A model generated the notes under the pieces. The model was not told where the DNA came from. It made no database searches and was given only the letters and a program-made list of their open reading frames with translations. A stretch of DNA of 64,000 bases from contig JAGVGF010000003.1 in assembly GCA_020057295.1 (NCBI GenBank), positions 128,001 through 192,000 of the forward strand, read 5' to 3'. This stretch comes from an archaeon. Its GTDB lineage: Archaea; Nanobdellota; Nanobdellia; Woesearchaeales; UBA9642. Both the position numbers and the translations under genes were made by a program. Numbering within the stretch: the stretch's first letter is position 1; each line of letters opens with the position of its first letter. Shown here one piece after another: positions 22,611 to 36,729 of this stretch.

Positions 22611-23522
22611 ATGAAAACGGCACGTAGACGATTAGTTCAACAAGGTGAATCTACATTAATGGTGAGTCTGCCCGCTCCATGGATTAAACTAAACAATCTA
22701 GAGAAAGGTTCTGAAGTTAGTATTGATCCATTAAATTCTGATTTACTAATTAGTGCAAAGAAACAAGATTACAAATCTGAAACTTCCATAAAAATTTTAG
22801 GACACACAGAATCAGCAATAAGAACAATAGTTACAAACACTTATAGAGTAGGTTATGATAGAATACGTGTAGAATATGGAGACAAGAAACAACTTGAAGT
22901 TGTAGAAACTGTCGTAAAAAATATGCTTATTGGTTTTGAAATTGTTTCAAGAGGTCAAGGATACTGCATCATTGAGAATATTACAGAACCATCCGAAGAA
23001 CAATTTGATAATATCTTAAGCAAAATATTCTATAACATTGAAGAATTATTTACGATTACAAAAGAACGTTTAGAGCAAAAAATTCCTGAAGAAAGTTATG
23101 AAGCAATACAAGAAAGATTACAAAAATATGATAATTATTGTAAAAGAATAATATCTAAACAAAAATTTTCAAACAATAAATCAGAATTTTTATGGGCCTT
23201 TTTAGCAATACTTTTACACGCGCACAGAGAATTACATCATTTAAACAAGTTTTTACCGAAAGATTACAAGACATCAGTAGAAGTTAAAGATTTATTTAAT
23301 ATAAATCATGAAATATTTGAGTTAATAAAAAAAGCATACTTCGAAAAAAACACCTCATATCTTGTAAAAGTTCATGAGTTAGAGAAATCAACAATATATG
23401 ACAAAGGATACAAATTACTTCAAATAAAAAAGGGACCTGATGCTGTTGTAATATATCATTTGTTGATTAGCATGAGAGAATTCTATCAATCAAATAGTCC
23501 GTTACATGGGATAATACTTTAG
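22611..23522 (+). CDS. AbrB-domain/PhoU-like regulator
   Basis: N-terminal RRLVQQGESTLMVSLPAPW (AbrB), Y..GYD.I, GFEIV, helical PhoU-like C-terminus. Confidence 0.85.
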   Translation: MKTARRRLVQQGESTLMVSLPAPWIKLNNLEKGSEVSIDPLNSDLLISAKKQDYKSETSIKILGHTESAIRTIVTNTYRVGYDRIRVEYGDKKQLEVVETVVKNMLIGFEIVSRGQGYCIIENITEPSEEQFDNILSKIFYNIEELFTITKERLEQKIPEESYEAIQERLQKYDNYCKRIISKQKFSNNKSEFLWAFLAILLHAHRELHHLNKFLPKDYKTSVEVKDLFNINHEIFELIKKAYFEKNTSYLVKVHELEKSTIYDKGYKLLQIKKGPDAVVIYHLLISMREFYQSNSPLHGIIL

Positions 23523-23547
23523 AATTTTTATGTTCTTATAATTATAA

Positions 23548-25953
23548 TTATTTTTTACCTGTTCCTTCCATCATTTTACGATAATTTTGTGTAACTTCCT
23601 CTCTTTTAATATCTCTCATAATATCCGTTGCTTCTCTTGAATATCTCATTACCTTGCTGGAAAAACTTGTATCAGGTATTATTTTTTCGAATCTACTTAA
23701 ATATTTCATTTCTCCACCCATATCTTGCGATCCTGTAGACTCTCTGCTGATTGGCAAAAATGTTTGATTCAAAATATGTCCATTTTTATAAGCTATAGTT
23801 TGTAATGTTAATTCCTTAGCTGAAGGACCTTTAGGGAAATTAGGTTTAATATCTCTAACATTAGACCATCCATCACATTCATTAAATTTTTCCATATATC
23901 CTATTTCTGGAATTCTTACTACATATTTTATATCTTTATTTACAGTCATGAGACTATAATCTGATTGTCTTCCATCAAATGCTTTAAACTTTATTTCTGG
24001 ATCCCAATAATATGAGTGATTGTCGAATTCTTGTAATGATATCGCTGATGTAGAGTCTTTTAACCCATCACTTCCTATATTATTTAATATTATAGGTATT
24101 GTTTTTCTAATGACTGGTTTATCTTTGCCGTTAAATAAAATTTTTGGTGTGACTTTGTAATCTTGTTCTTTTGATAACCATTCTTTTTGATATAACGTGT
24201 CAACTGTAGGATATAATTCTATTACTAAATTACGAACTGTTCCTTCCGGAACGTTTTCTGGTAATTTTATACCCCAAAGATCTGCATAATATCCATACAT
24301 TCCCATTTCCGGTTGAAAGTCAACATCAACAGGTACTACTGATATATTGTGTATTATATCGCTACTATCAGATGTACTAGGTTCTACTCCCTCAAAATAA
24401 ACTTTACCGGAAAATCTTGTATCAAATCTTAATGATTTGGATATTGGAAGGAAATATGCATGTACATTAACAGACAATCTTGTTCCCTGATTAGCAATAT
24501 AAGCTTTTGGATTTTCCATACTTGATTGATTAGTACTATAAATCATAGTAGATACTCTAAAGAAATTATTTTCTATCTCGTTTGTCTTGTCAACCCAATT
24601 AGATTCGACTTTAAATAATTCAGCAGGTTTTTCACGTAATACTTCATATCCTAAGAATAATTGTGATGCAATCATTGCTGTTCCCAGAGTTCTTGTTGCG
24701 TATCTTTTAGTTTTACTTAACCAATCACTTGTTCCGTGTTTTTTCCAGTCTTTTATGAAATCTTGAGTAGAACTGTATCTATATATTTCGTTAGAACTTA
24801 GTGCTCTCTGTAGTACTTCATTATATTTTCTTGCATGTTTTGGAACTTCGTTGTATAATGCCAACTTTAAAGTGTAATCATAAAGCTCTTTTTTAAATAT
24901 GCCTTTCTCATCGAATAGATTTTCTTCTTTTGTGAATCTTGTTTTCAATATCTTTGCTGTTCCTGTTGATGGATCTATAGAGAATATTTGTTCTCCGACA
25001 AGCATTTCTAAAAAATCTTTTGCAATAGAATATACTTCAGTTTTATCTGTATATGGTAAGGTTATTCCCTTATTTGCTGCTGGAATCATCAAAATATCTG
25101 CTACTTGTGTTGCTCCCATCGTTGCTTGAGGTTTTATTGTAGGATGAGATTTATAACATGCATTTGCAAAATCTGTTACAATCGCTTCTAATTTTTCTGA
25201 ATCTTTCTTTTTCTTGAATACTGATCCGATTTTCTTAATACTGTCTCTTATTTCTTCGTATGCTCCTTTCCATGTGTCTTCATATTTTTTCTCTTCAGGT
25301 CTTCTTAGGTTTGTTATTATATTTCTTAGAGAAAAATCTCTATGATATGTGTCTTTTTGATCGATATATCCTAAAGCATCAAGAATATCAGAACTTAACG
25401 TGTCAAATTCTTTTCTTGTTAATGGTTTATCTTTTAATTCTGGTAACAGTAAATTTATTGAACGATATCCTTCGAAATATTTTTCTGCACTTATGAAATG
25501 TTCTTTTCCAGCATCATCTGTGGTTATCCAAAAATCTAGTACAGGACTTATGTGATGTTTGTATGCTTCCGGCCCTAAATCTACAAGTGTATCGAAATCA
25601 TTTAATGTTGTGCATCCTTGTTCATAATGTATTTTTGCTCTTCTTCCTAATATTTGTTTTCTATCTTTTTTTAAAATTCTTTTTTGTTTTCCTCTATCTT
25701 TTGAACCATAGTCTGCTATGAAGCAAGCTCTTGGTCCTGCTGTGGAAGGAGTTCCTTCTGGAGGAAGATATGTTAAATTATGATATAATTTTTTCCCTTT
25801 TAATTTTTCTTCTTGTCTTAATGCCTTTTCAATAATTAATTGTTCTCCAATTATTTCGTTTGTTAATGGAATTACATTAGGAGATGTTTCTATTAATGCA
25901 CCTTCAGTATTTACCACTAATTCTAAATCCGAAACTTCTTCATGCACGCTCAT
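23548..25953 (-). CDS. Divergent Hanks-type Ser/Thr kinase-like transmembrane protein with uncharacterised C-terminal domain
   Basis: RILKK (beta3 Lys), HRDFSLRN, TDFA, TEVYSIA, subdomain XI R; hydrophobic TLGTAMIASQLFLGY followed by about 360 aa of beta-rich sequence. Confidence 0.8.
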   Translation of the reverse strand: MSVHEEVSDLELVVNTEGALIETSPNVIPLTNEIIGEQLIIEKALRQEEKLKGKKLYHNLTYLPPEGTPSTAGPRACFIADYGSKDRGKQKRILKKDRKQILGRRAKIHYEQGCTTLNDFDTLVDLGPEAYKHHISPVLDFWITTDDAGKEHFISAEKYFEGYRSINLLLPELKDKPLTRKEFDTLSSDILDALGYIDQKDTYHRDFSLRNIITNLRRPEEKKYEDTWKGAYEEIRDSIKKIGSVFKKKKDSEKLEAIVTDFANACYKSHPTIKPQATMGATQVADILMIPAANKGITLPYTDKTEVYSIAKDFLEMLVGEQIFSIDPSTGTAKILKTRFTKEENLFDEKGIFKKELYDYTLKLALYNEVPKHARKYNEVLQRALSSNEIYRYSSTQDFIKDWKKHGTSDWLSKTKRYATRTLGTAMIASQLFLGYEVLREKPAELFKVESNWVDKTNEIENNFFRVSTMIYSTNQSSMENPKAYIANQGTRLSVNVHAYFLPISKSLRFDTRFSGKVYFEGVEPSTSDSSDIIHNISVVPVDVDFQPEMGMYGYYADLWGIKLPENVPEGTVRNLVIELYPTVDTLYQKEWLSKEQDYKVTPKILFNGKDKPVIRKTIPIILNNIGSDGLKDSTSAISLQEFDNHSYYWDPEIKFKAFDGRQSDYSLMTVNKDIKYVVRIPEIGYMEKFNECDGWSNVRDIKPNFPKGPSAKELTLQTIAYKNGHILNQTFLPISRESTGSQDMGGEMKYLSRFEKIIPDTSFSSKVMRYSREATDIMRDIKREEVTQNYRKMMEGTGKK

Positions 25954-26114
25954 GCTGCACCTTCAGGATTTTCAACTTCTCTTAGAATTTCAATTGTAAC
26001 TTTAACCATTGTTCTTGGTTTTAGTTCTTGCTCTAACATTCTGGGTATAACTAGGATTGACTGTTTGCCGTGCTTGGCAATCTTTTTTGTTAATATAAAT
26101 TCTTTTTTTTCCAT
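25950..26114 (-). CDS. Small AbrB/SpoVT-type DNA-binding protein (54 aa)
   Basis: Manual translation MEKKEFILTKKIAKHGKQSILVIPRMLEQELKPRTMVKVTIEILREVENPEGAA; stop overlaps the kinase start (ATGA). Confidence 0.85.
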   Translation of the reverse strand: MEKKEFILTKKIAKHGKQSILVIPRMLEQELKPRTMVKVTIEILREVENPEGAA

Positions 26115-26158
26115 GCTATCCCAACCATGTATAAAAAATTAAGAAAAAAATTATAAAA

Positions 26159-27007
26159 TTATTTGAATGTGTACTTTACTGTGAATCTTTGATTCGTTTG
26201 TGGTTCTAACTTTCCTGATCCCTTGTTTGTGAATGAAGGATTCCATGATATAGACACATTATCGTTCGCCATATATTCTAAATTTCCTTCACCATAACTT
26301 GTTTCAGGTCCATCTTTAGAACTTAAGTTTACTTCGTAAAATCCTGACACTTTCAAACTTGGAGTGACTGTCGCCTCTGCATATACTCCTGTTATGCTTG
26401 TGTTTGGAACTTCTTTTCCGTGTGTATCTATTAATACTGGTGTGAAATATCCTTTTACAAATGAATCTTTAATAGGACTTACACTTAGATGTGCTCCAAC
26501 TCCTATTCTTGCAGGCATTCCTGTTCCGTAGATTAATTGATTGTCAAGACCTACATTTATTCCTGCAACGCTTGTTACATCTTTTGATAAAGTGTTTCTA
26601 CCAAATATCGTAGTTCCACCATTTACATAAAATTCAGTCCAATTATATCCGCTAATATCTGCTGGTAATCCGTAAAAAGTGTTTGTTCTTCCGTATGTAT
26701 GTTCGGGTTTTGTTCCTTGAACCCATTCGAAATTACCTGAATAGTTATCTACAGGTTGAACTGTTGGTGTAGGATTTGTTAAAGTATCTGACTGTGCTTT
26801 GTCTGAAGAATTTTCATTGAAGTATTGTCTTACTTTATTTTCCCACTTAAGTATTTCGTTATTTTGTTCTCTGGTAATTTCTCCTTTGAAAACAGGTCTA
26901 TGTTTCAATAATGCGTCAAATGTTGAATCTGATTTCACTTGCGCGCCAGCTGTATTTATTGCTAAAAATGTTAATAATGCCATTAAACTTGTTTTTATTT
27001 TACTCAT
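26159..27007 (-). CDS. Secreted beta-strand-rich protein, outer-membrane beta-barrel-like
   Basis: Signal peptide ending AGA-Q; alternating amphipathic strands; C-terminus FTVKYTFK. Confidence 0.65.
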   Translation of the reverse strand: MSKIKTSLMALLTFLAINTAGAQVKSDSTFDALLKHRPVFKGEITREQNNEILKWENKVRQYFNENSSDKAQSDTLTNPTPTVQPVDNYSGNFEWVQGTKPEHTYGRTNTFYGLPADISGYNWTEFYVNGGTTIFGRNTLSKDVTSVAGINVGLDNQLIYGTGMPARIGVGAHLSVSPIKDSFVKGYFTPVLIDTHGKEVPNTSITGVYAEATVTPSLKVSGFYEVNLSSKDGPETSYGEGNLEYMANDNVSISWNPSFTNKGSGKLEPQTNQRFTVKYTFK

Positions 27008-27027
27008 ATTATCCCCTCCGCTAAAAT

Positions 27028-27045
27028 TAACTACTATGTAGTAAT
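27028..27045. promoter_or_regulatory. Operator candidate TAACTAC-TAT-GTAGTAAT
   Basis: Near-perfect copy of the palindrome at 32393-32411, between TATA and RBS of the 27007 gene. Confidence 0.6.
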
Positions 27046-27260
27046 ATGTATAAAATATACATATTTATATAGTTTACGGTTTTTACCACTTAGCAATAGT
27101 TAATTAGCTGTTTGTCGTCTATATTTCTTGTCATTTTTGTTGTTAAATTGTGTTTTTTCTTAGTTTAAACATTTATAGAAATATATATAGTTTATACAAA
27201 ATGTTTATATGTTAGATGTGTATTCACTTAGTAGTAATAATTATTTAGGGGGATAGCAAA

Positions 27261-28376
27261 ATGAAAATAACAAATATACTTACTAGCATTGCACTTATGA
27301 GTGCATTAACATTCGGATACAAAGCGAATGCACAGGAAATTACTCCTGTAAAGATTTCTACATCAACAGACATTCAACAAACTAGTCTTAGAAATGGTAT
27401 TAGATTACATAGAACACAACTAGACATGGGAGATGTTACAATAAAGTACGATGCGAAAACAAATCTTAATCCAAGTGTTTCTAAGGATAATTTAAGCGAT
27501 GTCGGTGGAATATATGTTAGCAATATCATAAAGAAAGATAACTTCAATGTAGGAGCAGGATTAACTCAATTAGGAAATTGGGATTCAAAAAGTCAAGCTG
27601 TATTATATGGTTGGGCTGAATTAAATTATGATCAAGTCAAAGTAAAATTGGAAAAAGGACACAGTATAAGAATGACTGCTCCGATGGAATTTGATATAGT
27701 GACTGTATCAAATAGTAAATATTCTGACAATATAAATGCTATAGGCCAAGTATTTTTGATATCCAATAATGGATCAATGTACAATGGAATAGCAGGAAAA
27801 GATGCAAGCGGAAATAATAATAAAGAATTTCACGGATACTTAACTGTTGGAAATAATACTCTTACTGCAACTATAGCTGAAGAGGAAGGTACATCTCATG
27901 TATTAGGTATGGGAAAATATCTTAAAGATGTAGGAGCATTAATGTGGCTTAGAACAGACAGGTCCAAAAGAGATTGGGCATTAAGAGGAAAATTAGGATT
28001 TGGAAATATAGATGAAAAATTCTTCTCATACAACACAATGGTCGGAACTAACGATTTATTCTTACAGCCTCAATTGTATGAAGGACACTTAAGTCCCGGA
28101 ACTACAAGAGGAGATGCATCATTATCATTAACAGCCGTAGGCAATGGAAAGACTACTTCATTAGAATTAGTTCCTGGAATAAGAACTGATGTTGTATGTG
28201 TTGGTGCAGGAACATATACAGAATTCAAAAACAATCAATCAGTTACAGGATTATCTGGCGGAGTATTCAAGAAATTCTCTGTATCAGGACTTGAAGCTAG
28301 TGTTGAAGTAAATTACAAAAGCATCGGTGCAAATAAAGGATTCAATGCATACGTAACAACAAGTTATAAATTTTAA
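27261..28376 (+). CDS. Secreted beta-strand-rich protein, outer-membrane beta-barrel-like
   Basis: Signal peptide ending ANA-Q; Gly/aromatic-rich alternating strands; C-terminus YVTTSYKF. Confidence 0.65.
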   Translation: MKITNILTSIALMSALTFGYKANAQEITPVKISTSTDIQQTSLRNGIRLHRTQLDMGDVTIKYDAKTNLNPSVSKDNLSDVGGIYVSNIIKKDNFNVGAGLTQLGNWDSKSQAVLYGWAELNYDQVKVKLEKGHSIRMTAPMEFDIVTVSNSKYSDNINAIGQVFLISNNGSMYNGIAGKDASGNNNKEFHGYLTVGNNTLTATIAEEEGTSHVLGMGKYLKDVGALMWLRTDRSKRDWALRGKLGFGNIDEKFFSYNTMVGTNDLFLQPQLYEGHLSPGTTRGDASLSLTAVGNGKTTSLELVPGIRTDVVCVGAGTYTEFKNNQSVTGLSGGVFKKFSVSGLEASVEVNYKSIGANKGFNAYVTTSYKF

Positions 28377-28391
28377 TAAGGAGGAATAAAA

Positions 28392-28907
28392 ATGAACTAT
28401 ATAATTCCTCCATCGGAAAATTTTGACAGGAAATATTTGACTGAACTACATCATAATTCAAGATTAATTCTTGTAGATGATGTTGCAAAAAATACGACCG
28501 GTCTTGTAGGAATAGTTTCAAATCCTGTGCGCGTTGGTGGTCTTAGAAGACAACCTATAACGGTGAATTTTCTTGAGGATAAAGAAAAAATTCCGTTATT
28601 AAGTGGAATTGATCAAACTTTTTTTGATATTTCATATTTATTTCAGGGTGTAGACATAGGTTTTGTTGAAGAATCTAGAACTTTTGAAAATAAATTTAAT
28701 GAAATAATTCGCGGAGTATATGATAAGAATCGTGAAAGTATAGTCTGTTTTTACGATGTGCCGAAAACAAGATCTCAGAGAGTATCTGGAATGAAATCTG
28801 TTTATCCATTATATACAAAAGAAGGATGGAAACTTTTAGAACAGTATCAAGAAGAACAGCGAGTTATAAGAGAAGAAGCAGCAATGATGATGGTTCCTCC
28901 ATTCTAA
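28392..28907 (+). CDS. Hypothetical protein
   Basis: AGGAGG RBS; co-oriented with the upstream gene. Confidence 0.7.
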   Translation: MNYIIPPSENFDRKYLTELHHNSRLILVDDVAKNTTGLVGIVSNPVRVGGLRRQPITVNFLEDKEKIPLLSGIDQTFFDISYLFQGVDIGFVEESRTFENKFNEIIRGVYDKNRESIVCFYDVPKTRSQRVSGMKSVYPLYTKEGWKLLEQYQEEQRVIREEAAMMMVPPF

Positions 28908-30847: not shown

Positions 30848-31558
30848 TTACCTATGAGCATTATATTGGTCATGAACTGATAATAGCAGGTTTAAAAAAC
30901 TCTTTTCGTGTGAGTACTCATATTGTCCCCTATTTTTTAAGAAGAATGGTTTTCCTGATGCAAATATCATTCCAAAAGTAAATATTAAAGACGGATTACG
31001 TTCATCCCATGTAAATTCTACATGTGCTGCTTCTCTTAATTGCTCGCGTGTTTCTAATAATAGTTTATATGTTGTTTCTGAAACACTGTCGACAATTTTT
31101 GGAACATTTAAATTGTGAGTTCCATACTTTACCATTACTAATCCTGCAACGTTTCCTAAAGGATGATTGATAAAGTAAGAACCGTTTACAAGATTTATTG
31201 GTGTTTCTTTCATGAATGCCATTCCAGTATCAGCAATACTTCCTTTACTTGTTGGATTAAATACTGCATCAACAGTTCCAGCACTTCCGATTGCTAATCT
31301 ATGCGCCTCGAATATTCTTACCATTTTTACATCGTCTTGTGCTGTATGTCTGTATGGATCATAAACTTTGAATCCATCGTTTTTTCTTTTGTCGACATGA
31401 GTTTGTATTGCTTGTCTTTCTTTTTCTTCAATTCCTGTAACAGATGATAAGAAATATACTCTTTTTTCTTTCTGCGCTTTGAAGAATTCTTCTACTTCTT
31501 TAATATTAGCAGGATTAAATGATCCTTCTTTCAACCATAAACTCGATTCTAAACTCAT
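30848..31558 (-). CDS. Nucleoside 2-deoxyribosyltransferase (NDT)-like protein with degenerate second repeat
   Basis: RVYF, GFKVYDP, AI..A, SKGSIADTGMAF...P; echoed by SLIFTFGMIFASGKP. Confidence 0.65.
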   Translation of the reverse strand: MSLESSLWLKEGSFNPANIKEVEEFFKAQKEKRVYFLSSVTGIEEKERQAIQTHVDKRKNDGFKVYDPYRHTAQDDVKMVRIFEAHRLAIGSAGTVDAVFNPTSKGSIADTGMAFMKETPINLVNGSYFINHPLGNVAGLVMVKYGTHNLNVPKIVDSVSETTYKLLLETREQLREAAHVEFTWDERNPSLIFTFGMIFASGKPFFLKNRGQYEYSHEKSFLNLLLSVHDQYNAHR

Positions 31559-31599
31559 ACTACTAGAAAATAGTTATTATTTTAAAAAGTTGTCTATTA

Positions 31600-32298
31600 T
31601 TAGAATCCTAATAATCTTTTTAGAGAATATTTTTTCTTACGAAGCCATGTATTTAATTCTGATTCCAGCATTCCGAATTTCCTTTCATCATGTCTAAATG
31701 CTGTGGTGTGTGCTTGATGTCGCCCATTCTTAATTTTAAATGTATGTTTCTTATGTAATAACTCGTGATACATTACATAATCTAAAAATTTTTGCTCAGA
31801 GTCAGGCAAATCTTTGAAGATAGTACTCATATATATAGTGTCCGTACTATACTCGTAACTTCCAAGTTTATGAAAACTTTCACTTGCAAATACTAGATTG
31901 GGCTTTTCAATATTTCCTTCGAATAATCTTTCATTTATTCTCTTGTATGATTCTTCTAATTGTGGATCAAAGTCGTGTTTTTTGGCATATTTTGATAATC
32001 CTTTCATGAAACTTTCATATAACTTCATTTCTGATGTGCTTATACTTCTTAGTTTTGTCATCTTTACAATAAGACTTTGTAATAATCCTATCTGTATATC
32101 TTCATCTACATTTTTCCATTCGCGGGAAAGATTGAATTGAATAATGTTTTTACTGTATCTTATATTGCCATTATAATTATTGAAGTGGCCTGAATATTTT
32201 AGTGAGATTCTTCTATTTTGTATTATTTCCTTGCTTGATAAGAATTCTATGCTCGTGACTGCTTTCAAAGCTATTTTGTCTATATTATCCATATTCAA
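31600..32298 (-). CDS. SprT/YgjP(DUF45)-like zinc metallopeptidase
   Basis: LGSY, LDYVMYHELLH...H...F. Confidence 0.8.
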   Translation of the reverse strand: MNMDNIDKIALKAVTSIEFLSSKEIIQNRRISLKYSGHFNNYNGNIRYSKNIIQFNLSREWKNVDEDIQIGLLQSLIVKMTKLRSISTSEMKLYESFMKGLSKYAKKHDFDPQLEESYKRINERLFEGNIEKPNLVFASESFHKLGSYEYSTDTIYMSTIFKDLPDSEQKFLDYVMYHELLHKKHTFKIKNGRHQAHTTAFRHDERKFGMLESELNTWLRKKKYSLKRLLGF

Positions 32299-32392
32299 GG
32301 TTTATGTGAGATGTTTAATAAGTTTATGTATAAGATATTGTTCTTACTTGAAAGTGACTATAAATCGAAACATTTATATATAAGTTATACTT

Positions 32393-32411
32393 ATTACTAC
32401 TAAGTAGTAAT
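32393..32411. promoter_or_regulatory. Perfect palindromic operator candidate ATTACTAC-TAA-GTAGTAAT
   Basis: 8-bp inverted repeat downstream of TTTATATA (32373-32380), over the probable transcription start. Confidence 0.7.
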
Positions 32412-32431
32412 TATTTGATTTGGGGGTATAC

Positions 32432-33562
32432 ATGAATGATGTTTTAGAGAAGGAAAGAGTAATAGTTCAAGAAAAACCTTTTCAAAGAAATTGGACTCAC
32501 GAATATTTAGATCAATTGCTAGATACATTACCACAAATTAATTCTCATAATCCATCTAATCCAGAATGGCGTGAAACACCATTAATAAAATTAGATCTTA
32601 ACAATTACGGTTCTAAAAAGAGAAATGTAAGAGTTCTTGTAAAAAATGAGGCTGACAGAACAAGTAATCCTGAAGGTCTTCTAAAAAATAGAATGGCACA
32701 CGAAGTTGAACCAGTATTTTATAGACATGTAGCAGAACATTTATGGAGACAAAAACTTAATGGACAGTTGCATTTAATTCCATTACCATTACAAACTATG
32801 TGCACAGCAGGAAATGCCGGAATGGTTCTAGCAAAAGCTGCAGAAAAATATGGTTTACCTCCTGTAAAATTATTACTTGACATTCACACTCCTTCAAACA
32901 TTCTTGAAGCATTAAAAAAATCAAGGGCAGATATTTATCTTGCACCCTTAGATAGAAATGTTTTCACAGGAAAAGATGAACCTTACAGCCCATTACAACT
33001 AAGAATTTTAACGAACAATAATACGGGATTTGATACGACTTCTTCACATTCACCGATTAATCCTTTCAAGGATTACTATGATTGGCATTGGCATGAAATA
33101 TTTAATAAGCAACCATCAAGAGTTTATGGTCCATTCGGTACAGGAGATTGGTTCTCAAATGGAATAACATGGCAGAGAGAAACAGTCTATAATGGAGAAA
33201 CACGTAAAGATCCAAGATTAACTGCAGATATTTCTAGAGTAACAGATATTAGTATACTTGCTGCAGAGCCTGAATTACAAACAAGTTTAGCAAGAAAACT
33301 TACAGGATTAAAACCTTTCTTATATTATACAGAGAACGATATTACAGCTATGAAATTATCACGCTTCACAGGAAAAGATACAGGAGTTTACAAAATAAGT
33401 GAAGATTATTTGAAAGAAGGATTCAACATATTAAGTCATGTTGTAGAAACTTCATATGACGGATCTTCAGGAATGGCACTTTTAGTCAAAGATTTTGATG
33501 AAGGAAAATTAAAACCTGGAGAAACATATATTGCAGTAAATACTGGGAGGGGACTAGTATGA
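32432..33562 (+). CDS. Divergent PLP-dependent fold-type II enzyme (threonine synthase/cysteine synthase superfamily)
   Basis: ETPL, VKNE..NPEGLLKNR (PLP Lys), TAGNAG, PFGTG, AAEP, VNTG; GGGGG RBS before ATG 32432. Confidence 0.78.
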   Translation: MNDVLEKERVIVQEKPFQRNWTHEYLDQLLDTLPQINSHNPSNPEWRETPLIKLDLNNYGSKKRNVRVLVKNEADRTSNPEGLLKNRMAHEVEPVFYRHVAEHLWRQKLNGQLHLIPLPLQTMCTAGNAGMVLAKAAEKYGLPPVKLLLDIHTPSNILEALKKSRADIYLAPLDRNVFTGKDEPYSPLQLRILTNNNTGFDTTSSHSPINPFKDYYDWHWHEIFNKQPSRVYGPFGTGDWFSNGITWQRETVYNGETRKDPRLTADISRVTDISILAAEPELQTSLARKLTGLKPFLYYTENDITAMKLSRFTGKDTGVYKISEDYLKEGFNILSHVVETSYDGSSGMALLVKDFDEGKLKPGETYIAVNTGRGLV

Positions 33563-33708
33563 AATACAAAGTCTGCATCTCAGTGGATGAAGAAACGTTA
33601 TTAAAAATCAGAGAACATATACGTAAAGGTAAATTCAGAAATAGATCTCACGCTTTCGAATACGCAATTTCTAAAGAATTCATAGCACAAGGTGATGCTC
33701 ATGAGTAA
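33559..33708 (+). CDS. Ribbon-helix-helix DNA-binding protein (49 aa)
   Basis: Manual translation MKYKVCISVDEETLLKIREHIRKGKFRNRSHAFEYAISKEFIAQGDAHE; overlaps both neighbours. Confidence 0.85.
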   Translation: MKYKVCISVDEETLLKIREHIRKGKFRNRSHAFEYAISKEFIAQGDAHE

Positions 33709-35827
33709 ATCATTAAAAGTTTCACTACAAAAATTACTTGGTAGTAGAGCACACTATTCTTATTTGAGCGATGTTGTATTTCCAGAATTAGAACAACTAG
33801 TGGCTGATAATATTATTGTTCCTCAAGAATTACGTAAAATAAGAGAGAACGTCGAATCTAAAGGTGTTGGTATATTAAATCCTGAAGTATCTTTTAGATC
33901 AGACATAACACGTAATACTTATGAGGCTGATGGTTGGATTGCTGAAACAGTTAATGAACTTGCTCCAGGAGTAAATGTTTCACACATTATTAAGAAATGT
34001 TCATCTAAAGAAGATTTCAAACGTAGTGTTAGAACTTATAGATCACTCGAAAGTGCATTAAAAGATACTCCTTATCAAGGCAAAATTCCTAAACATTTTT
34101 ACGCTATAAAATCAAAAAAAATTATTGACGCGCCTTTTGTAAAGGGAAAAATACTTTCAAGAGAATTAGATGAAAGTTCACAAGAAGACAAAGAAGCGTA
34201 TCTAAAAGGATGTATTGCAGATTATATAGATTTTTACAAATTTTTGAATCAACCTGAAGTTTCTCAGAAATTAGATTTAGGGCAATTATCAGATTTTAAT
34301 GAATTTTTCTTCTTCAAGTATTCAAAGAGCGGACCATTATTCCAATTATATCAGAGGGATATCGGTAATGATCTGAATACCGTTGGTAAGAAAGTTATTC
34401 AAGGAGACTTAGTTCCAACTAACGTTCTACACGGTGCAGAAAATGCATCTGATTTTTCATATGTAGATTGGGGTAATGCAGTAAACAATGGATTTTTAGA
34501 ATTTGATATAGGATATTTATTAAAAAAATCTAAAGTAACTCCTGAAGTTGAAGAGAAATTAGCAAGATATGCTGCAGAATTAGCTTATGATACTTCTGAA
34601 GATAGAGAAAGATCATTTAAGATATATACAAAAAATATGATTACACAAGAATTATTATCTGCTAGAAGATATGTTGATAGATCAAAATCTAAGGATATAA
34701 TTGACTCGGATCAAAGAGTTTCTTTAGAGAATATGGCTTTAGTAAATTATAATCGTGCAGTTGCAAGAACAAGAACTGCTGTAAATCGTGGAATTGTTAG
34801 TCAAGAATTTTTGAATGCTTTAGTTGATCAACCTATCGATGGATTAAAAGTTGTAGAAAATTATGATCACTTACTAAAAGATTGGGATCCAGATGGGTCT
34901 ATGTCGCAAGACAATTTAGTTCCAAAAGATATTACAAAAGCAGAACAATATGATCCAAAAAAGAATTTGAAAGCTATAAAGAAAAGCATATTCCGTGAAA
35001 GATCCCGTTCATTGACTTATTCAGCCTTGAAAATATTTGCTGTAGTCAGCGCTCTAAGTATGGCTGGAGGAATAATCTATAATCAGAATAGGGAAACTGA
35101 AATGCTAAAGGAAGATGCTGAAAAGACAAGAATAAGTTATCTTCAAGATAACACCACAAATTTATACGAAAGTTTATTCAGACGTCAATTCGATCTGGTT
35201 TCGAGAAGATTTGCCGAGGGATACAAGCAACTTAGTTTTAGAGAGAACGACACGAGAATTGACAGTGTAGCAAAAAAATATCAACTTGATCCACAATTAA
35301 TAAGGAATATAATGAAGGTCAATAGAGTATATGCTGGATACACTACTTTGGCTAGTGACCAAACCCTTGATGTTGAGGGAATCAGTGTTGCTGATTGTAT
35401 ATCTATGGCTGACTCAATTAATGAAACGAGACGTATGAGTACGTTTTATTTGCGTGATAATGAGGTAGAATCACTTGATCCTGTCAAGAATCTTGAGGCC
35501 TGTGCGCAAAGATTAAGTAAATATTTTAAAGAAGAAAAAGAAAAAACACCTCTAGAATCTGTAGGTTCATATGAAATATATGTCACAGAGCTCAATAAGC
35601 GTGTCTTAACAAGATTTTTCTTTCCATTTACGGAGAAAAAAGAACTTAATGTTGGAGAAAAAAGTTATCACATGCCTTATGGAGATTTCAGCGAATTAGA
35701 AATGAAAGATATACGTGATAGGGTTGTTAGACAGTTAGTCTATAATGCGATGTATGGAATATCTCACGGCGCGGAGTTCGGGCATTTGTATAGTTCATCA
35801 TTAAAAACCCCTCCGGATAATTTTTAA
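33701..35827 (+). CDS. APH/choline-kinase-like phosphotransferase + TM helix + lytic transglycosylase (SLT)-like domain
   Basis: IIKK, QGDLVPTNVL, YVDWG, FDIGYL; TM IFAVVSALSMAGGII; IDSVAKKYQLDPQLIRNIMKVN...DPVKNLEACAQRL. Confidence 0.75.
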   Translation: MSKSLKVSLQKLLGSRAHYSYLSDVVFPELEQLVADNIIVPQELRKIRENVESKGVGILNPEVSFRSDITRNTYEADGWIAETVNELAPGVNVSHIIKKCSSKEDFKRSVRTYRSLESALKDTPYQGKIPKHFYAIKSKKIIDAPFVKGKILSRELDESSQEDKEAYLKGCIADYIDFYKFLNQPEVSQKLDLGQLSDFNEFFFFKYSKSGPLFQLYQRDIGNDLNTVGKKVIQGDLVPTNVLHGAENASDFSYVDWGNAVNNGFLEFDIGYLLKKSKVTPEVEEKLARYAAELAYDTSEDRERSFKIYTKNMITQELLSARRYVDRSKSKDIIDSDQRVSLENMALVNYNRAVARTRTAVNRGIVSQEFLNALVDQPIDGLKVVENYDHLLKDWDPDGSMSQDNLVPKDITKAEQYDPKKNLKAIKKSIFRERSRSLTYSALKIFAVVSALSMAGGIIYNQNRETEMLKEDAEKTRISYLQDNTTNLYESLFRRQFDLVSRRFAEGYKQLSFRENDTRIDSVAKKYQLDPQLIRNIMKVNRVYAGYTTLASDQTLDVEGISVADCISMADSINETRRMSTFYLRDNEVESLDPVKNLEACAQRLSKYFKEEKEKTPLESVGSYEIYVTELNKRVLTRFFFPFTEKKELNVGEKSYHMPYGDFSELEMKDIRDRVVRQLVYNAMYGISHGAEFGHLYSSSLKTPPDNF

Positions 35828-36729
35828 TTAATATTCAGTAACTGTCCCATTATTTTTATGATATGTTCTGTGATAGTTTCAAAATGTTTTAATATTATTA
35901 TTTCGGAATTTTTTATTTTAGAATTTTCTAATTGTTTGTTTATTTCTTTTATTATTTTGTCTCTCTCTACAGCTATTTGTACAGCTTGATCGAAGTTGAA
36001 TTTTAGAAATAATTTTTGCATCTCTTTATTGTAACTATTTATATTTTGATATATTGAAATAAATTCTTTATTTAATTGCATATTGTTTTCTGTAATGTAT
36101 TTGTTTAGCTTTTTATATTCGTCCGCTATCTCTTCTATCAAAAACAATGCGCAATACAGTACTGCTGTTTTCTTATGATCTGAATGTCCCTTCTTGTTTA
36201 GTATTCTAAAACAATAGTCTGTGAATTTATTGATATTTTTTTCAATATCTGATGTGTATTCTAAGTCTGTATTTTTTTCTTGAATTGTTTTTAGGCTTTC
36301 ATCAGATAATGTGTTGAGTAGATATAATACTCTTTTTATTATATTTTCAAAATTGTCTTCTCCTGCGGATGCCATATCTTTGATTATTATTCTGTCTTTT
36401 CCTTGATCTATTATTTCTACTCCTATTAATTCGTCAACTCTTCGTTGTATGATTCTTGATTTATCTAGTGTATCAAATATTACTTCTATTTCATCATTGC
36501 CTTTTAGATATCTTGAAACTAAAATTCTTTTCATTAACTTATCATATTTTGATAGATCTATTATTTCTCTTACTACTGAGCCTTTTCCATCTGTTGTAAT
36601 TACTAAACTACTGTTTTCTTGTTCTACGTTTATCTCATCGCCAGGCTTCAAATTTGTTGTTTTGAACCATTTACTTGGTAGACTTATGACCATTGTTGCT
36701 GGTCCTAATTTCATTATTTTCCGCTTCAT
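35824..36729 (-). CDS. AbrB-domain/PhoU-like regulator
   Basis: MKRKIMKLGPATMVISLPSKW..LKPGDEI, YLKGNDEI, GVEII, INKFTDYCFR; paralogue of 22611-23522. Confidence 0.87.
   Translation of the reverse strand: MKRKIMKLGPATMVISLPSKWFKTTNLKPGDEINVEQENSSLVITTDGKGSVVREIIDLSKYDKLMKRILVSRYLKGNDEIEVIFDTLDKSRIIQRRVDELIGVEIIDQGKDRIIIKDMASAGEDNFENIIKRVLYLLNTLSDESLKTIQEKNTDLEYTSDIEKNINKFTDYCFRILNKKGHSDHKKTAVLYCALFLIEEIADEYKKLNKYITENNMQLNKEFISIYQNINSYNKEMQKLFLKFNFDQAVQIAVERDKIIKEINKQLENSKIKNSEIIILKHFETITEHIIKIMGQLLNIN

What the first reader, a model, noticed from the sequence alone, without database searches (positions are those of the whole stretch)
22611..36729. Candidate bacteria-sensing/host-contact regulon: twin transmembrane-kinase loci, beta-barrels and a shared operator
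Seen in sequence: two mirror-image loci about 10 kb apart. Locus A is beta-barrel-like gene > AbrB mini-gene > TM Hanks-like kinase. Locus B is PLP enzyme > RHH mini-gene > TM APH-like kinase with an SLT-like ectodomain. In both, a small DNA-binding gene overlaps the kinase start, and the kinase gene ends tail-to-tail with an AbrB-PhoU regulator paralogue. Both promoters carry TTACTAC-N3-GTAGTAA. Inference: one-pass receptor kinases, a peptidoglycan-like sensor and OMP-like proteins could form a co-regulated system by which a small archaeon detects and exploits bacterial cells. I know of no description of this arrangement, but novelty needs a literature and database check.
Basis: partly seen in the sequence, partly recalled or inferred. 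Interest (0 to 1): 0.85.

Follow-up and report, generated by a model that had tools for sequence, protein, structure and literature searches.

The report
Archaeal membrane-kinase cassettes with mini-regulators
A small Woesearchaeota-type archaeon carries two copies of a conserved three-gene cassette (a tiny DNA-binding protein, a membrane kinase with an outside sensor domain, and an AbrB-PhoU regulator) that probably lets it sense something outside the cell and switch surface and uptake genes, but what it senses has not been shown.

Summary
The two loci, the gene overlaps, the tail-to-tail AbrB-PhoU paralogues and the palindrome are all at the stated coordinates.

Fold calls mostly hold:
- kinB is APH/choline-kinase-like. 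Its ectodomain resembles a lytic transglycosylase (SLT), but the catalytic Glu column is Asn in 28 of 39 relatives and never Glu.
- kinA is a divergent Hanks-like kinase with only a weak membrane segment.
- The 371-aa neighbour models as a porin-like beta-barrel.
- The 282-aa 'barrel' could not be folded.

The cassette is conserved. All 11 Woesearchaeota-type genomes with a clear kinB-type kinase have a convergent AbrB-PhoU gene, and 10 have an overlapping mini-gene. Two weaker loci had neither. Parts are swapped between genomes: RHH or AbrB-like mini-gene, APH-like or true Pkinase domain on the same SLT-like ectodomain.

The palindrome is real (10 intergenic sites at 2 mismatches or fewer; controls average 1.3) but not private to the two loci. 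Its GTAGTA/TACTAC core recurs upstream of RHH-led operons in 7 of 8 genomes, so the RHH is the likeliest binder. A second box pair (ATGTATA/TATACAT) tracks the AbrB-like mini-gene.

The best reading is a receptor-kinase signalling cassette with autoregulating mini-repressors. 'Senses bacteria' remains untested.

The parts
22611..23522 (+). AbrB-PhoU_A: regulator with an N-terminal AbrB/MazE/SpoVT DNA-binding domain and a helical C-terminal part, tail-to-tail with kinA
   Evidence: Pfam MazE_antitoxin E 8e-6. It is 1 of 4 paralogues in the genome. Orthologues sit convergent to kinA in L039 and divergent from barrel371-like genes in G084, G010 and G078. At family level, 9 of 101 homologues carry PhoU PF01895, and sources name them 'phosphate uptake regulator PhoU'.
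23548..25953 (-). kinA: 801-aa divergent Hanks-like kinase (about aa 70-405), a weak hydrophobic segment (aa 422-440) and a C-terminal domain of about 350 aa with unknown fold
   Evidence: Pfam Pkinase is weak: E 0.0027, 17.6 bits against a cut-off of 31.7. 3 of 4 homologues carry PF00069. HRD...N and D-F-A are invariant in 5 of 5. The Atlas search of the C-terminal part gave no usable hit.
25950..26114 (-). miniAbrB: 54-aa putative AbrB-like DNA-binding protein, translationally coupled to kinA
   Evidence: Its stop overlaps the kinA start by 4 nt. The family is 59-88% identical to the window's copy across 6 loci and is found in front of kinases in L039, L040, G008, G023, G016 and G044. The AbrB fold is only suggested: no Pfam hit; hhalign against the AbrB-PhoU N-terminus gives E 0.049, probability 1%.
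26159..27007 (-). barrel282: 282-aa secreted protein rich in Gly/Ser/Thr/Asn, first gene of the locus A operon; fold not established
   Evidence: A signal-peptide-like N-terminus and the C-terminus ...KYTFK can be read in the sequence. No Pfam hit. Homologues occur in 5 of 200 other genomes of the order. No relation to barrel371 and no PDB sequence match.
27028..27044 (.). Palindrome TAACTAC-TAT-GTAGTAA (RHH-type operator, 1 mismatch) in the locus A promoter
   Evidence: It is conserved in the near-identical strain L040. It lies between the box pair and the Shine-Dalgarno sequence.
27046..27062 (.). Second palindrome ATGTATA-AAA-TATACAT (miniAbrB-type operator) between the TATA box and the first palindrome
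   Evidence: It is the only intergenic pair of these boxes in the genome. The same box pair stands at miniAbrB-led operons in L039, G016 and G008, and one box in G023. Background is 0.028 per 100 nt.
27231..27237 (+). Half-site GTAGTAA upstream of barrel371, between its TATA-like box and Shine-Dalgarno sequence
   Evidence: Read. Conserved in L040. It is a half-site only, so weak on its own.
27261..28376 (+). barrel371: 371-aa secreted protein modelled as a porin-like beta-barrel of about 19 strands
   Evidence: AlphaFold2 model from 7 sequences: pLDDT 67.9, pTM 0.64. In the VIA-align wide search the 50 rows shown are membrane beta-barrels, mostly bacterial outer-membrane proteins, with maltoporin at Z 14.1. 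Foldseek is weak: best E 1.5e-3. Strand amphipathicity is 2.68 against 1.53 +/- 0.26, and 0 of 2000 shuffles reach it. A paralogue lies on C5.
32394..32410 (.). Exact palindrome TTACTAC-TAA-GTAGTAA, 13 nt downstream of the TATA box TTTATATA (32373-32380), in the locus B promoter
   Evidence: Genome-wide enrichment is shown.
32432..33562 (+). PLP-fold (PALP-like) enzyme; not part of the conserved cassette
   Evidence: Pfam PALP E 8.6e-7, 29 bits against a cut-off of 35. It is absent from this position in G001, L035-L038 and G060. Homologues occur in 9 of 200 other genomes. In G094 its closest homologue follows an RHH mini-gene.
33559..33708 (+). RHH: 49-aa ribbon-helix-helix protein, translationally coupled to kinB
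   Evidence: Pfam RHH_1 E 1.1e-3 for this copy, 19.3 bits against a cut-off of 20.5. 5 of 6 orthologues match, best E 9.7e-5. It overlaps the kinase start here and in G001, L035-L038 and G060.
33692..35827 (+). kinB: cytoplasmic APH/choline-kinase-like kinase (about aa 1-400), one membrane helix (aa 444-462) and an extracellular SLT-like domain without catalytic Glu (about aa 505-680)
   Evidence: 58 representative relatives. 30 of 39 match Pfam APH. Model pLDDT 84.6. Foldseek to APH/ChoK/MTR-kinase/NahK structures gives E about 1e-5. The family profile matches MltC 9vi7 at E 1.1e-4. The Glu column is N in 28 of 39 and E in 0 of 39, while the kinase residues K98, D236, N241 and D256 are kept in 36-39 of 39.
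35824..36729 (-). AbrB-PhoU_B: regulator convergent with kinB (4-nt overlap) and divergent from LivJ-type binding-protein genes
   Evidence: Pfam MazE_antitoxin. Orthologues of 47-60% identity, 80% in close relatives, stand convergent to the kinase in every kinB-type locus examined.
36900..39324 (+). Two LivJ-type periplasmic-binding-protein genes (36900-38123 and 38170-39324), divergent from AbrB-PhoU_B
   Evidence: Pfam Peripla_BP_6 E 1.5e-32 and 2.4e-59. The same divergent arrangement can be read in L036, L037 and L038.
7582..7598 (.). A further 2-mismatch copy of the palindrome (TTACTAT-TAA-ATAGTAA), just upstream of a TATA box, outside the reported range
   Evidence: genome coordinate C1:135582. 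The downstream 244-aa ORF has no Pfam hit.

Best explanation
These are two copies, alike in architecture but not in sequence, of a signalling cassette typical of Woesearchaeota-type archaea.

What each cassette contains:
- A tiny protein made of a DNA-binding domain only: RHH of 46-57 aa, or AbrB-like of 43-58 aa.
- A membrane kinase, translationally coupled to the tiny protein. Its kinase domain (APH-like or Hanks-type) is cytoplasmic and its C-terminal domain is outside the cell.
- A convergent AbrB-PhoU regulator. That regulator in turn sits head-to-head with genes for surface or uptake proteins: porin-like barrels or LivJ-type binding proteins.

Proposed mechanism (inferred, not shown):
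1. A ligand binds the ectodomain. In kinB this is a lytic-transglycosylase fold that has lost its catalytic Glu, so it would bind glycan strands rather than cut them.
2. Binding changes kinase activity inside the cell.
3. The kinase phosphorylates its co-translated mini-repressor, the AbrB-PhoU protein, or both.
4. Transcription of the cassette and of surface and uptake genes changes.

The mini-proteins are autorepressors whose operators overlap the transcription start:
- GTAGTA/TACTAC boxes go with the RHH. In this genome they form the 17-bp palindrome, which has about 10 intergenic sites.
- A pair of ATGTATA/TATACAT boxes goes with the AbrB-like protein.

The locus A promoter carries both operators in tandem. 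Cassette B's RHH would therefore cross-regulate cassette A, the LivJ-type gene on contig 3 and a few other promoters.
For: Shown here:

(1) Fold and motif assignments.
- kinB: 30 of 39 relatives match Pfam APH. Foldseek probability is 1.0 to APH, choline-kinase and sugar-kinase structures. K98, D236, N241 and D256 are kept in 36-39 of 39.
- kinB membrane topology: one hydrophobic helix at a fixed position in 30 of 39 relatives, with 5 Lys/Arg on the N-terminal side.
- kinB ectodomain: the family profile matches MltC at E 1.1e-4, and the catalytic-Glu column is Asn in 28 of 39 and Glu in 0 of 39. 17 of 30 Atlas neighbours are SLT clusters.

(2) Synteny.
- A convergent AbrB-PhoU gene is present in all 11 genomes with a clear kinB-type kinase: G000, G001, L035=G303, L036=G110, L037, L038, G060, G016, G044, G254, G061.
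- An overlapping mini-gene is present in 10 of these 11: RHH in 7, AbrB-like in 2, an unassigned 58-aa ORF in 1.
- Sources.
- The kinA cassette is complete in L039. The mini-gene plus kinase is also found in L040, G008 and G023.

(3) Swapped parts.
- G254 and G044 carry a true Pkinase domain (E 1.8e-31 and 1.3e-21) on the same transmembrane plus SLT-like C-terminal part, in the same three-gene context.
- G016 pairs an AbrB-like mini-gene with an APH-like kinase.
- This argues that the two kinase folds do the same job, which would be signalling.

(4) Cis elements.
- The palindrome has 4 of 4 sites intergenic at 1 mismatch or fewer, and 10 of 15 at 2 or fewer. For 210 palindromes of the same composition the means are 0.09 and 1.3, and the next best values are 2 and 6.
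- 7 of the 10 intergenic sites lie 6-18 nt after a TATA-like box.
- GTAGTA/TACTAC occurs 9 times in the 90 nt upstream of RHH-led operons, in 7 of 8 genomes. Background is 0.044 per 90 nt.
- Two ATGTATA/TATACAT boxes stand after the TATA box of miniAbrB-led operons in 4 genomes, and one box in a fifth. Background is 0.028 per 100 nt.

(5) Links between AbrB-PhoU and surface genes.
- AbrB-PhoU_A orthologues are divergent from barrel371-like genes in G084, G010 and G078.
- AbrB-PhoU_B is divergent from LivJ-type genes here and in L036-L038.

Precedent: Bacillus Hanks kinases phosphorylate AbrB (PMC6213207, passages and table seen).
Against: - No phosphorylation, DNA binding or ligand binding was tested, so every functional arrow is inferred.
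- APH-family members are mostly small-molecule kinases. The best fold matches are all small-molecule kinases, including the sugar kinase NahK.
- kinA's membrane segment is marginal in this genome and its C-terminal domain has no recognisable fold.
- The exact 17-bp palindrome is not enriched in most relatives: 0-1 sites per genome in 19 of 20 against 0-6 for the reversed control. Only G022 has 5.
- The hexamer and heptamer boxes were chosen after seeing this genome, and orthologous promoters are not independent.
- A TrmB-family regulator lies head-to-head with one of the four best sites, and TrmB proteins bind TACT...AGTA palindromes. The RHH is therefore not the only candidate binder.
- PhoU is not detectable in the window's own AbrB-PhoU proteins.
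- The families are sparse. Full-length kinB occurs in 3 of 300 other genomes sampled in the order, and kinA in 3 of 40 relatives and only weakly.
- Two weak kinase loci, L069 and L070, had no AbrB-PhoU or mini-gene in their 1.5-kb flanks.
Confidence: 0.5

Rival explanations
1. Glycan or amino-sugar salvage rather than signalling. kinB is a membrane-anchored small-molecule kinase, like the anomeric sugar kinases of the APH family, and phosphorylates imported sugars. Its SLT-like domain captures glycan strands outside the cell. The RHH is simply the operon's repressor.
For: - The fold matches are all small-molecule kinases (PsiK, choline kinase, MTR kinase, NahK with GlcNAc, aminoglycoside kinases), E 1.5e-5 to 1.7e-4.
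- 30 of 39 relatives match Pfam APH and 6 match Choline_kinase.
- The cassette sits next to uptake genes: LivJ-type binding proteins.
Against: - The same SLT-like ectodomain, in the same three-gene context, is fused to a true Ser/Thr Pkinase domain in G254 and G044.
- Fusing a small-molecule kinase through one helix to an outside binding domain has no obvious purpose.
- The catalytic Glu needed to release sugars from a glycan strand is missing in 39 of 39.
- The top PDB sequence match of the family profile is a Ser/Thr protein kinase, E 4e-5.
Confidence: 0.15
2. Independent neighbours with no joint function. Compact genomes place small regulators, kinases and AbrB-PhoU genes side by side. The palindrome belongs to a general regulator, for example one of the many TrmB-family proteins, and has no link to the cassettes.
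For: - The genome encodes 11 TrmB-domain matches over the Pfam cut-off.
- One TrmB-family gene is divergent from the LivJ-type gene that carries one of the four best sites.
- Pyrococcus TrmB binds TACTN3AGTA at the promoter of a binding-protein gene (PMC4158304, passages seen).
- A barrel282 homologue in G078 is divergent from a TrmB-like gene, with CTACTA-AC-TAGTAG between them.
- AbrB-PhoU genes also pair with unrelated genes: inositol monophosphatase and a histidine phosphatase on C5.
Against: - The three-gene order, the 4-17-nt overlaps and the convergent overlap persist while the kinases diverge to 23-41% identity and even change kinase fold.
- The cis boxes follow the mini-gene type across genomes whatever the downstream gene is. 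This includes RHH followed by PLP in G094.
- The TrmB-like paralogues' own promoters carry different palindromes.
Confidence: 0.2
3. A toxin-antitoxin-like or defence module. The kinase is a toxin or effector, as in HipA-type kinase toxins, held in check by an RHH or AbrB-type antitoxin that also represses the operon.
For: - A small RHH or AbrB/MazE-type gene overlapping a larger downstream gene, with a palindromic operator, is the classic type II layout. This comparison is recalled, not tested.
- The distribution is sparse and patchy, and the kinases diverge fast.
- 18 of 39 kinB relatives give weak hits to TCAD9, a domain named from conflict systems.
Against: - The mini-proteins are 43-58 aa, which is a bare DNA-binding domain with no tail to wrap a toxin.
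- The kinases carry a membrane helix and a large outside domain.
- The flanking genes are housekeeping and syntenic: M50 protease, eIF5A and an RNA methyltransferase-like gene. There are no mobile-element genes in the flanks read.
Confidence: 0.08

Closest known systems
PASTA-domain Ser/Thr receptor kinases of bacteria (PknB, PrkC, Stk1)
   Same: Both are single-pass proteins with a cytoplasmic kinase and an outside domain of a cell-wall-binding type. Both control cell-surface functions. [quoted passage not shown]
   Different: The outside domain here is a catalytically dead lytic-transglycosylase fold, not PASTA. The kinase may be APH-like instead of Hanks-type. The host is an archaeon that is not known to make peptidoglycan (recalled). 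The gene comes with a co-translated mini DNA-binding protein and an AbrB-PhoU neighbour.
Phosphorylation of AbrB by Hanks-type kinases PrkC, PrkD and YabT in Bacillus subtilis
   Same: A Ser/Thr kinase acts on an AbrB-type DNA-binding protein to change gene expression (PMC6213207, text and table passages seen).
   Different: In Bacillus the genes are not linked and AbrB is a global regulator. Here the kinase and two AbrB-type or RHH proteins are fixed neighbours, and phosphorylation is only inferred.
[quoted passage not shown] 2021, PMC8204110)
   Same: An SLT-type domain exposed on the surface of the same archaeal group, read by those authors as binding or degrading bacterial cell walls (abstract and two passages seen).
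   Different: Those are proteins of up to about 3000 aa thought to be enzymes. Here the domain is the ectodomain of a kinase of about 700 aa and lacks the catalytic Glu. The paper's supplementary family tables could not be opened, so overlap with its families cannot be excluded.
Archaeal AbrB-PhoU regulators ('phosphate uptake regulator PhoU', PhoU-family transcription factors)
   Same: The N-terminal AbrB/MazE domain matches in 10 of 10. Homologues are named PhoU by NCBI and JGI, and 9 of 101 carry PF01895. PhoU-family factors form a sizeable family in Pyrococcus furiosus (PMC6316755, passages seen).
   Different: PhoU is not detectable in the window's own proteins by Pfam, NCBIfam or PDB profile. 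No link to kinases came up in the searches run.
TrmB and its operator TACTN3AGTA at the malE promoter (Pyrococcus furiosus)
   Same: A palindrome built on TACT...AGTA, at the promoter of a binding-protein gene, with the regulator gene nearby and repression by blocking polymerase recruitment (PMC4158304, passages seen).
   Different: The spacing differs: TACT-N7-AGTA, or CTAC-N3-GTAG. The box follows RHH genes across genomes. The binder has not been identified.
Type II toxin-antitoxin modules with RHH or AbrB/MazE antitoxins, and kinase toxins such as HipA (recalled)
   Same: A small RHH or AbrB-type gene overlaps a larger downstream gene, and a palindromic operator sits at the promoter.
   Different: The mini-proteins have no toxin-binding extension. 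The large protein is a membrane protein with an ectodomain. The flanks are conserved and chromosomal.
Outer-membrane porins of diderm bacteria
   Same: barrel371 has a signal-peptide-like start and ends in an aromatic residue (...SYKF). It models as a barrel of about 19 amphipathic strands whose best structural matches are maltoporin, MtrB, MOMP and Occ porins.
   Different: The host is an archaeon. No Omp85/BamA match was found in the genome, although the same search found it in 7 control diderm genomes. The model has middling confidence (pLDDT 68, from 7 sequences). There is no sequence match to any porin family.

Membership tests
APH / choline-kinase-like kinases (Pfam PF01636 clan) - kinB | Bilobal kinase fold | tested here: met
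   Model pLDDT 84.6. Foldseek probability 1.0 and E 1.5e-5 to 1e-4 against PsiK, choline kinase, MTR kinase, NahK and APH(2'') structures.
APH / choline-kinase-like kinases (Pfam PF01636 clan) - kinB | Catalytic motif HxDxxxxN, the Mg-binding Asp and the beta3 Lys | tested here: met
   D236 in 38 of 39, N241 in 36 of 39, D256 in 39 of 39 and K98 in 37 of 39. The window's copy has Q instead of the His, which is H in 35 of 39.
APH / choline-kinase-like kinases (Pfam PF01636 clan) - kinB | Match to the Pfam model | tested here: inconclusive
   The window's own protein has no hit, but 30 of 39 relatives match APH, best E 5.4e-13.
Family 1 lytic transglycosylases / SLT (PF01464) - kinB ectodomain | Lysozyme-like SLT fold and sequence motifs | tested here: met
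   The family profile matches MltC 9vi7 at E 1.1e-4 over profile positions 502-671. 3 of 39 relatives give weak Pfam SLT hits, best E 0.0027. 17 of 30 Atlas neighbours are SLT clusters at score 0.91. The domain was not searched alone by structure.
Family 1 lytic transglycosylases / SLT (PF01464) - kinB ectodomain | Catalytic glutamate (E-S motif) | tested here: not met
   The column aligned to the Glu of MltC's I-E-S holds N in 28 of 39, E in 0 of 39 and D in 1 of 39. The domain has the fold but is not an active member.
Hanks-type protein kinases (PF00069) - kinA | Catalytic loop HRD..N and the DFG Asp | tested here: met
   YHRDxSLRN and D-(F/Y/C)-A-N are invariant at H204, R205, D206, N211 and D261 in 5 of 5. 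The Gly of DFG is replaced by Ala.
Hanks-type protein kinases (PF00069) - kinA | Pfam gathering score and the beta3 Lys | tested here: inconclusive
   The window's copy scores 17.6 bits against a cut-off of 31.7. 3 of 4 homologues carry a precomputed PF00069. The candidate Lys (K94) is K in 4 of 5. No structure was predicted.
Single-pass receptor kinases | One membrane helix between kinase and sensor domain, with the kinase inside the cell | tested here: met
   This holds for kinB: KD 1.81 at aa 444-462, with 5 Lys/Arg on the N-terminal flank against 2 on the C-terminal flank, and 30 of 39 relatives at 1.6 or more at the same place. For kinA it is inconclusive: KD 0.86, with 3 of 5 relatives at 1.5 or more.
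Ribbon-helix-helix (CopG/Arc/MetJ) - 49-aa gene | Match to RHH_1 and the pattern of N-terminal strand plus two helices | tested here: met
   5 of 6 orthologues match RHH_1, best E 9.7e-5. The window's copy scores 19.3 bits against a cut-off of 20.5. The conserved F-R-N-K-S-H-x-I-E-Y stretch is seen.
AbrB/SpoVT/MazE swapped-hairpin - 54-aa gene | Match to an AbrB-type model | tested here: inconclusive
   No Pfam or NCBIfam hit. hhalign places it in register with the AbrB domain of the AbrB-PhoU family, but only at E 0.049, probability 1%.
Archaeal AbrB-PhoU regulators | N-terminal AbrB/MazE domain | tested here: met
   PF04014 in 10 of 10 aligned members, best E 4.6e-8.
Archaeal AbrB-PhoU regulators | C-terminal PhoU domain (PF01895) | tested here: inconclusive
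   Not detected in the window's proteins or in the 10-member set. 9 of 101 homologues carry PF01895, and several are named PhoU by their sources.
Outer-membrane-type beta-barrels - barrel371 | Closed antiparallel barrel with amphipathic strands | tested here: met
   Model pLDDT 67.9. The 50 rows shown by VIA-align are membrane barrels, Z 14.1 down to 8.6. Foldseek gives only E 1.5e-3. Amphipathicity exceeds all 2000 shuffles. The model has middling confidence.
Outer-membrane-type beta-barrels - barrel371 | Barrel-assembly machinery (Omp85/BamA) in the same genome | tested here: not met
   No PF01103 match in the genome, which is rated 100% complete. The same search finds it in 7 of 14 control genomes.
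Outer-membrane-type beta-barrels - barrel282 | Barrel fold | not tested
There is no relation to barrel371, no PDB sequence match and no Pfam hit.
Type II toxin-antitoxin | Antitoxin with a toxin-binding extension beyond the DNA-binding domain | tested here: not met
   The mini-proteins are 43-58 aa, which is the length of the DNA-binding domain alone.

The most novel reading that the evidence does not exclude
Woesearchaeota use receptor kinases whose outside domain is a catalytically dead lytic transglycosylase to detect peptidoglycan strands of neighbouring bacteria. This would be an archaeal counterpart of PASTA kinases and plant LysM receptor kinases. Through co-translated mini-repressors, the kinases would switch on porin-like beta-barrels and uptake systems. 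Since the archaeon has no outer membrane and no Omp85, the barrels might insert into the partner's envelope to draw nutrients.
Probability: 0.15. Interest if true: 0.9.

Novelty: new variant of a known kind. Interest (0 to 1): 0.68.

Why it matters
DPANN archaea are thought to live attached to other cells, yet how they perceive a partner is unknown, and signalling in archaea beyond two-component systems is poorly charted. This locus offers several things to work on:
- A compact, conserved and testable signalling unit: an outside sensor domain of a cell-wall-binding fold, a kinase that can be either of two folds, two candidate DNA-binding targets, and defined operators.
- A concrete regulatory circuit, in which cassette B's RHH acts on cassette A's promoter.
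- Porin-like barrels in an organism without the usual assembly machinery, which raises the question of where such proteins sit.

Each point can be tested with recombinant proteins, without culturing the organism.

Tried and rejected
- Complex prediction of the kinB kinase domain (aa 1-400) with the RHH: 'no answer', score 0.00, controls not run. This is not evidence either way.
- Sequencing runs: no RNA holder was listed. Expression and co-expression could therefore not be tested.
- Atlas search of the kinA C-terminal domain: no usable hit.
- PDB sequence searches:
  - kinA gave only E 0.3 or weaker to VRK1 and SLK.
  - kinB alone gave nothing.
  - AbrB-PhoU_B alone and the AbrB-PhoU profile gave nothing meaningful.
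  - The barrel282 profile gave nothing.
- NCBIfam gave nothing useful for the 10 proteins.
- barrel282 against barrel371: no relation, as a single sequence or as a profile.
- The exact palindrome in 20 relatives: 0-1 sites in 19 of them, 5 in G022, and 0-6 for the reversed control. I therefore dropped the idea of a clade-wide 17-bp operator and looked at core boxes in orthologous promoters instead.
- The half-site alone is not enriched between genes: 12 of 115 TTACTAC and 13 of 110 GTAGTAA are intergenic, and about 10% of the genome is intergenic.
- The TrmB-family neighbour at the contig 3 site was considered as the binder and kept as a rival. The closest G000 relative of the G078 TrmB-like gene is a different paralogue. 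The paralogues' own promoters carry other palindromes.
- Literature: I found no description of the cassette, of an SLT-like ectodomain on an archaeal kinase, or of porin-like barrels in Woesearchaeota in searches. These cover only the held library.

Full report
**What is there.**
The window is G000:C1:128001-192000, from a 1.2-Mb, 31% GC genome in 6 contigs. Related records are titled Candidatus Woesearchaeota. An eIF5A gene lies between the two loci, which I read from the sequence.

Locus A, minus strand:
- A 282-aa secreted protein, 26159-27007.
- A 54-aa mini-gene, 25950-26114, which overlaps the kinase start by 4 nt.
- An 801-aa kinase-like protein, 23548-25953.
- A 303-aa AbrB-domain protein on the plus strand, 22611-23522, which meets the kinase tail-to-tail.

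Locus B, plus strand:
- A PLP-fold enzyme, 32432-33562.
- A 49-aa RHH gene, 33559-33708, which overlaps the kinase start.
- A 711-aa protein, 33692-35827.
- A roughly 301-aa AbrB-domain protein on the minus strand, 35824-36729, which meets the kinase tail-to-tail with a 4-nt overlap.

TTACTAC-N3-GTAGTAA is exact at 32394-32410 and has one mismatch at 27028-27044.

**Folds.**

*kinB.* It has 58 representative relatives among 1.84 billion proteins.
- Of 39 aligned relatives, 30 match Pfam APH, 6 match Choline_kinase and 3 match SLT weakly.
- The model (pLDDT 84.6) matches APH, choline-kinase, MTR-kinase and NahK structures at E about 1e-5.
- The catalytic Lys, Asp, Asn and Asp are kept in 36-39 of 39.
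- One hydrophobic helix sits at a fixed place in 30 of 39. Positive charges lie on the kinase side, so the kinase is inside the cell and the C-terminal domain is outside.
- The family profile matches lytic transglycosylase MltC (9vi7) at E 1.1e-4 and a phage tape-measure protein at E 0.01.
- In the printed alignment, the Glu of MltC's I-E-S falls on a column that is Asn in 28 of 39 relatives and never Glu.
- The ectodomain therefore has the SLT fold but cannot be an active transglycosylase of the usual kind.

*kinA.*
- It has only 4 near-length homologues among 5.8 billion proteins, and 3 of them carry PF00069.
- HRD..N and D-F-A are invariant.
- Its own Pfam score is below the cut-off.
- Its hydrophobic segment is weak.
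- Its C-terminal 350 aa have no recognisable relative.

*Mini-genes and regulators.*
- The RHH call is sound: 5 of 6 orthologues match.
- The 'AbrB' call for the 54-aa gene is only suggestive.
- The two large regulators belong to the archaeal AbrB-PhoU family at family level.
- PhoU is not detectable in these copies.
- They are 2 of 4 paralogues in the genome.

*Barrels.*
- The 371-aa gene divergent from locus A (27261-28376) models as a barrel of about 19 strands (pLDDT 67.9, from 7 sequences).
- The 50 rows shown by the Foldseek-independent search are membrane beta-barrels, with maltoporin at Z 14.1. Foldseek itself is weak.
- The strands are amphipathic beyond all 2000 shuffles.
- The genome has no Omp85 match.

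**Is the arrangement conserved?** Yes. This is the main result.

*kinB-type kinases.*
- RHH, kinase and a convergent AbrB-PhoU gene are found in G001, in L035, L036, L037 and L038 and in G060.
- L062 and L064 are the same DNA as L035 and L036.
- G016, a different genus, has a 43-aa homologue of the locus A mini-gene overlapping a 972-aa APH-like kinase, with a convergent AbrB protein.
- G044 and G254 have a true Pkinase domain (E 1.3e-21 and 1.8e-31) joined to the C-terminal part of the kinB family. Each has an overlapping 58-aa mini-gene and a convergent AbrB-PhoU gene.
- G061 has the kinase and AbrB-PhoU, but no mini-gene was found.
- Two weak, partial kinase matches, L069 and L070, had neither neighbour in their 1.5-kb flanks.
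- The PLP gene is present only in this genome's cassette. In G094 its closest homologue follows an RHH mini-gene with no kinase.

*kinA.*
- L039 has the complete set: a barrel371-like gene, divergent; then mini-gene, kinase and a convergent AbrB-PhoU_A orthologue.
- L040, a strain with 89% identity, repeats the window's layout up to the end of its contig.
- G008 has a barrel371-family gene (hhalign 97.6%), the mini-gene and a 332-aa kinase, but no AbrB-PhoU.
- G023 has the mini-gene and the kinase at a contig end.
- AbrB-PhoU_A orthologues lie head-to-head with barrel371-like genes in G084, G010 and G078, which have no kinase at that place.
- AbrB-PhoU_B lies head-to-head with LivJ-type binding-protein genes here and in L036-L038.

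*Frequency.* The families are sparse.
- Full-length kinB: 3 of 300 other genomes sampled in the order (the raw tally of 126 of 301 is mostly generic kinase-motif hits).
- kinA: 3 of 40 relatives.
- barrel371: 3 of 200.
- barrel282: 5 of 200.

**The motif.**
- Genome-wide there are 4 sites at 1 mismatch or fewer, all intergenic, and 15 at 2 or fewer, of which 10 are intergenic.
- For the 210 palindromes with the same half-site composition, the intergenic means are 0.09 and 1.3, and the next best values are 2 and 6.
- Seven of the ten intergenic sites lie 6-18 nt after a TATA-like box, which is across the expected transcription start. Three lie just upstream of one.
- Downstream genes include the two cassettes, a LivJ-type binding protein on contig 3, RmlC, and several proteins without a family.
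- One of these, a 432-aa protein on contig 4, has a homologue next to the barrel, mini-gene and kinase cluster of G008.
- The operator is therefore real, but it defines a set of about ten promoters, not a private link between the two loci.
- As a 17-mer it is not enriched in 19 of 20 relatives.

**Who binds it?**
- I compared orthologous promoters. The core hexamer GTAGTA/TACTAC occurs 9 times in the 90 nt upstream of RHH-led operons, in 7 of 8 genomes. Leaving this genome out, that is 7 hits in 6 of 7. Background is 0.044 per 90 nt.
- G094, where the RHH precedes the PLP gene, has CTAC-CGG-GTAGTA.
- In the same way, operons led by the AbrB-like mini-gene carry two ATGTATA/TATACAT boxes, 3-4 nt apart, right after the TATA box. 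This holds in G000, L039, G016 and G008. G023 has one box and G044 a degenerate pair. Background is 0.028 per 100 nt.
- In G000 the only intergenic pair is at 27046-27062.
- So the cis boxes track the type of mini-gene, which points to autoregulation by each mini-protein.
- The locus A promoter carries both operators in tandem (27028-27044 and 27046-27062). This suggests that cassette B's RHH also controls cassette A.
- Caveats: the boxes were chosen after seeing this genome, and a TrmB-family gene next to the contig 3 site is a fair alternative binder.

**How it most likely works.** It is a transmembrane signalling unit. An outside ligand acts on the ectodomain, the kinase acts on its co-made mini-repressor and/or the AbrB-PhoU protein, and transcription of the cassette and of surface and uptake genes changes. 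The strongest argument for signalling over metabolism is that one and the same ectodomain and gene context carry either an APH-like or a true Ser/Thr kinase domain. What is shown is anatomy, conservation and cis-element co-occurrence. Every functional arrow is inferred. The ligand is unknown. A dead SLT fold suggests a glycan strand, and peptidoglycan is the obvious candidate, given earlier readings of SLT proteins in this group (PMC8204110). Pseudomurein, chitin-like glycans or the cell's own surface glycans are not excluded.

**Novelty.** Receptor Ser/Thr kinases with wall-binding ectodomains are known, as are AbrB phosphorylation, RHH autorepressors and AbrB-PhoU regulators. The searches run did not find:
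- the fixed three-gene cassette with swappable parts;
- an SLT-like pseudo-enzyme as a kinase ectodomain in archaea;
- porin-like barrels tied to such cassettes.
I rate it a new variant of a known kind, of good interest, with the host-sensing reading still open.

Noticed in passing
G000 contig 3, 137742-138440 (L003:5740-6441, minus) and the genome at large: The 1.2-Mb genome has 11 TrmB-domain matches over the Pfam cut-off. These include about six paralogues of roughly 240 aa. Several of their own promoters carry distinct TGT...ACA-type palindromes.
   Followed up: partly
G000 contig 4, 75945-77243 (L004:5946-7244): A 432-aa protein without a Pfam family carries a 2-mismatch copy of the palindrome in its promoter. 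Two homologous genes lie directly upstream of the barrel, mini-gene and kinase cluster in G008 (26% identity, E 1e-32). By eye it has an LHDFKEDL stretch that recalls HD-domain hydrolases. That resemblance was not tested.
   Followed up: partly
L055 (G094:C51) 1326-2538: A 47-aa RHH mini-gene, 43% identical to the window's, sits immediately upstream of the closest homologue of the PLP enzyme, with no kinase. The RHH mini-gene therefore leads different operons in different genomes.
   Followed up: partly
L001 (G000:C5:44000-62000) 6952-9402 and 12162-14393: A third AbrB-PhoU paralogue is divergent from an inositol-monophosphatase gene and a histidine-phosphatase gene. About 4.4 kb away, the barrel371 paralogue is divergent from a double-wHTH Lrp/AsnC-type regulator, with TACTAT-N6-ATAGTA in the spacer.
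   Followed up: partly
L043 (G010), L049 (G078), L018 (G008) barrel homologues: Some barrel371-like and barrel282-like proteins start with a shared ...AL(S/A)G(Q/S)PDT(T/A)xLEQK... stretch instead of a classical signal peptide. This hints at a common targeting or anchoring signal for two otherwise unrelated families.
   Followed up: no
window 28392-28907: A 171-aa ORF without a family follows barrel371 here. A homologue follows it in the related strain L040 (2046-2561), so it may be a partner of the barrel.
   Followed up: no
L063 (G060:C30) 608-1510: The AbrB-PhoU gene convergent with the kinase is split there into a 66-aa ORF and a 231-aa ORF. This could be a frameshift, a stop or an assembly error.
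   Followed up: no
L034 and L036 record titles: Two of the related MAG records are titled 'uncultured Methanosarcinales archaeon', while the others say Woesearchaeota or just archaeon. The gene content matches the Woesearchaeota-type loci, so those labels look doubtful.
   Followed up: no
G000 contig 2, 69786-69802 (L005): One of the four best palindrome sites follows a TATA-like box on the plus strand, but no plus-strand ORF follows it. It lies between the 3' end of a PKD-domain protein gene and the promoter of a 418-aa NEW3/FixG_C-like protein gene. It may mark a non-coding transcript or act upstream of the minus-strand promoter.
   Followed up: no
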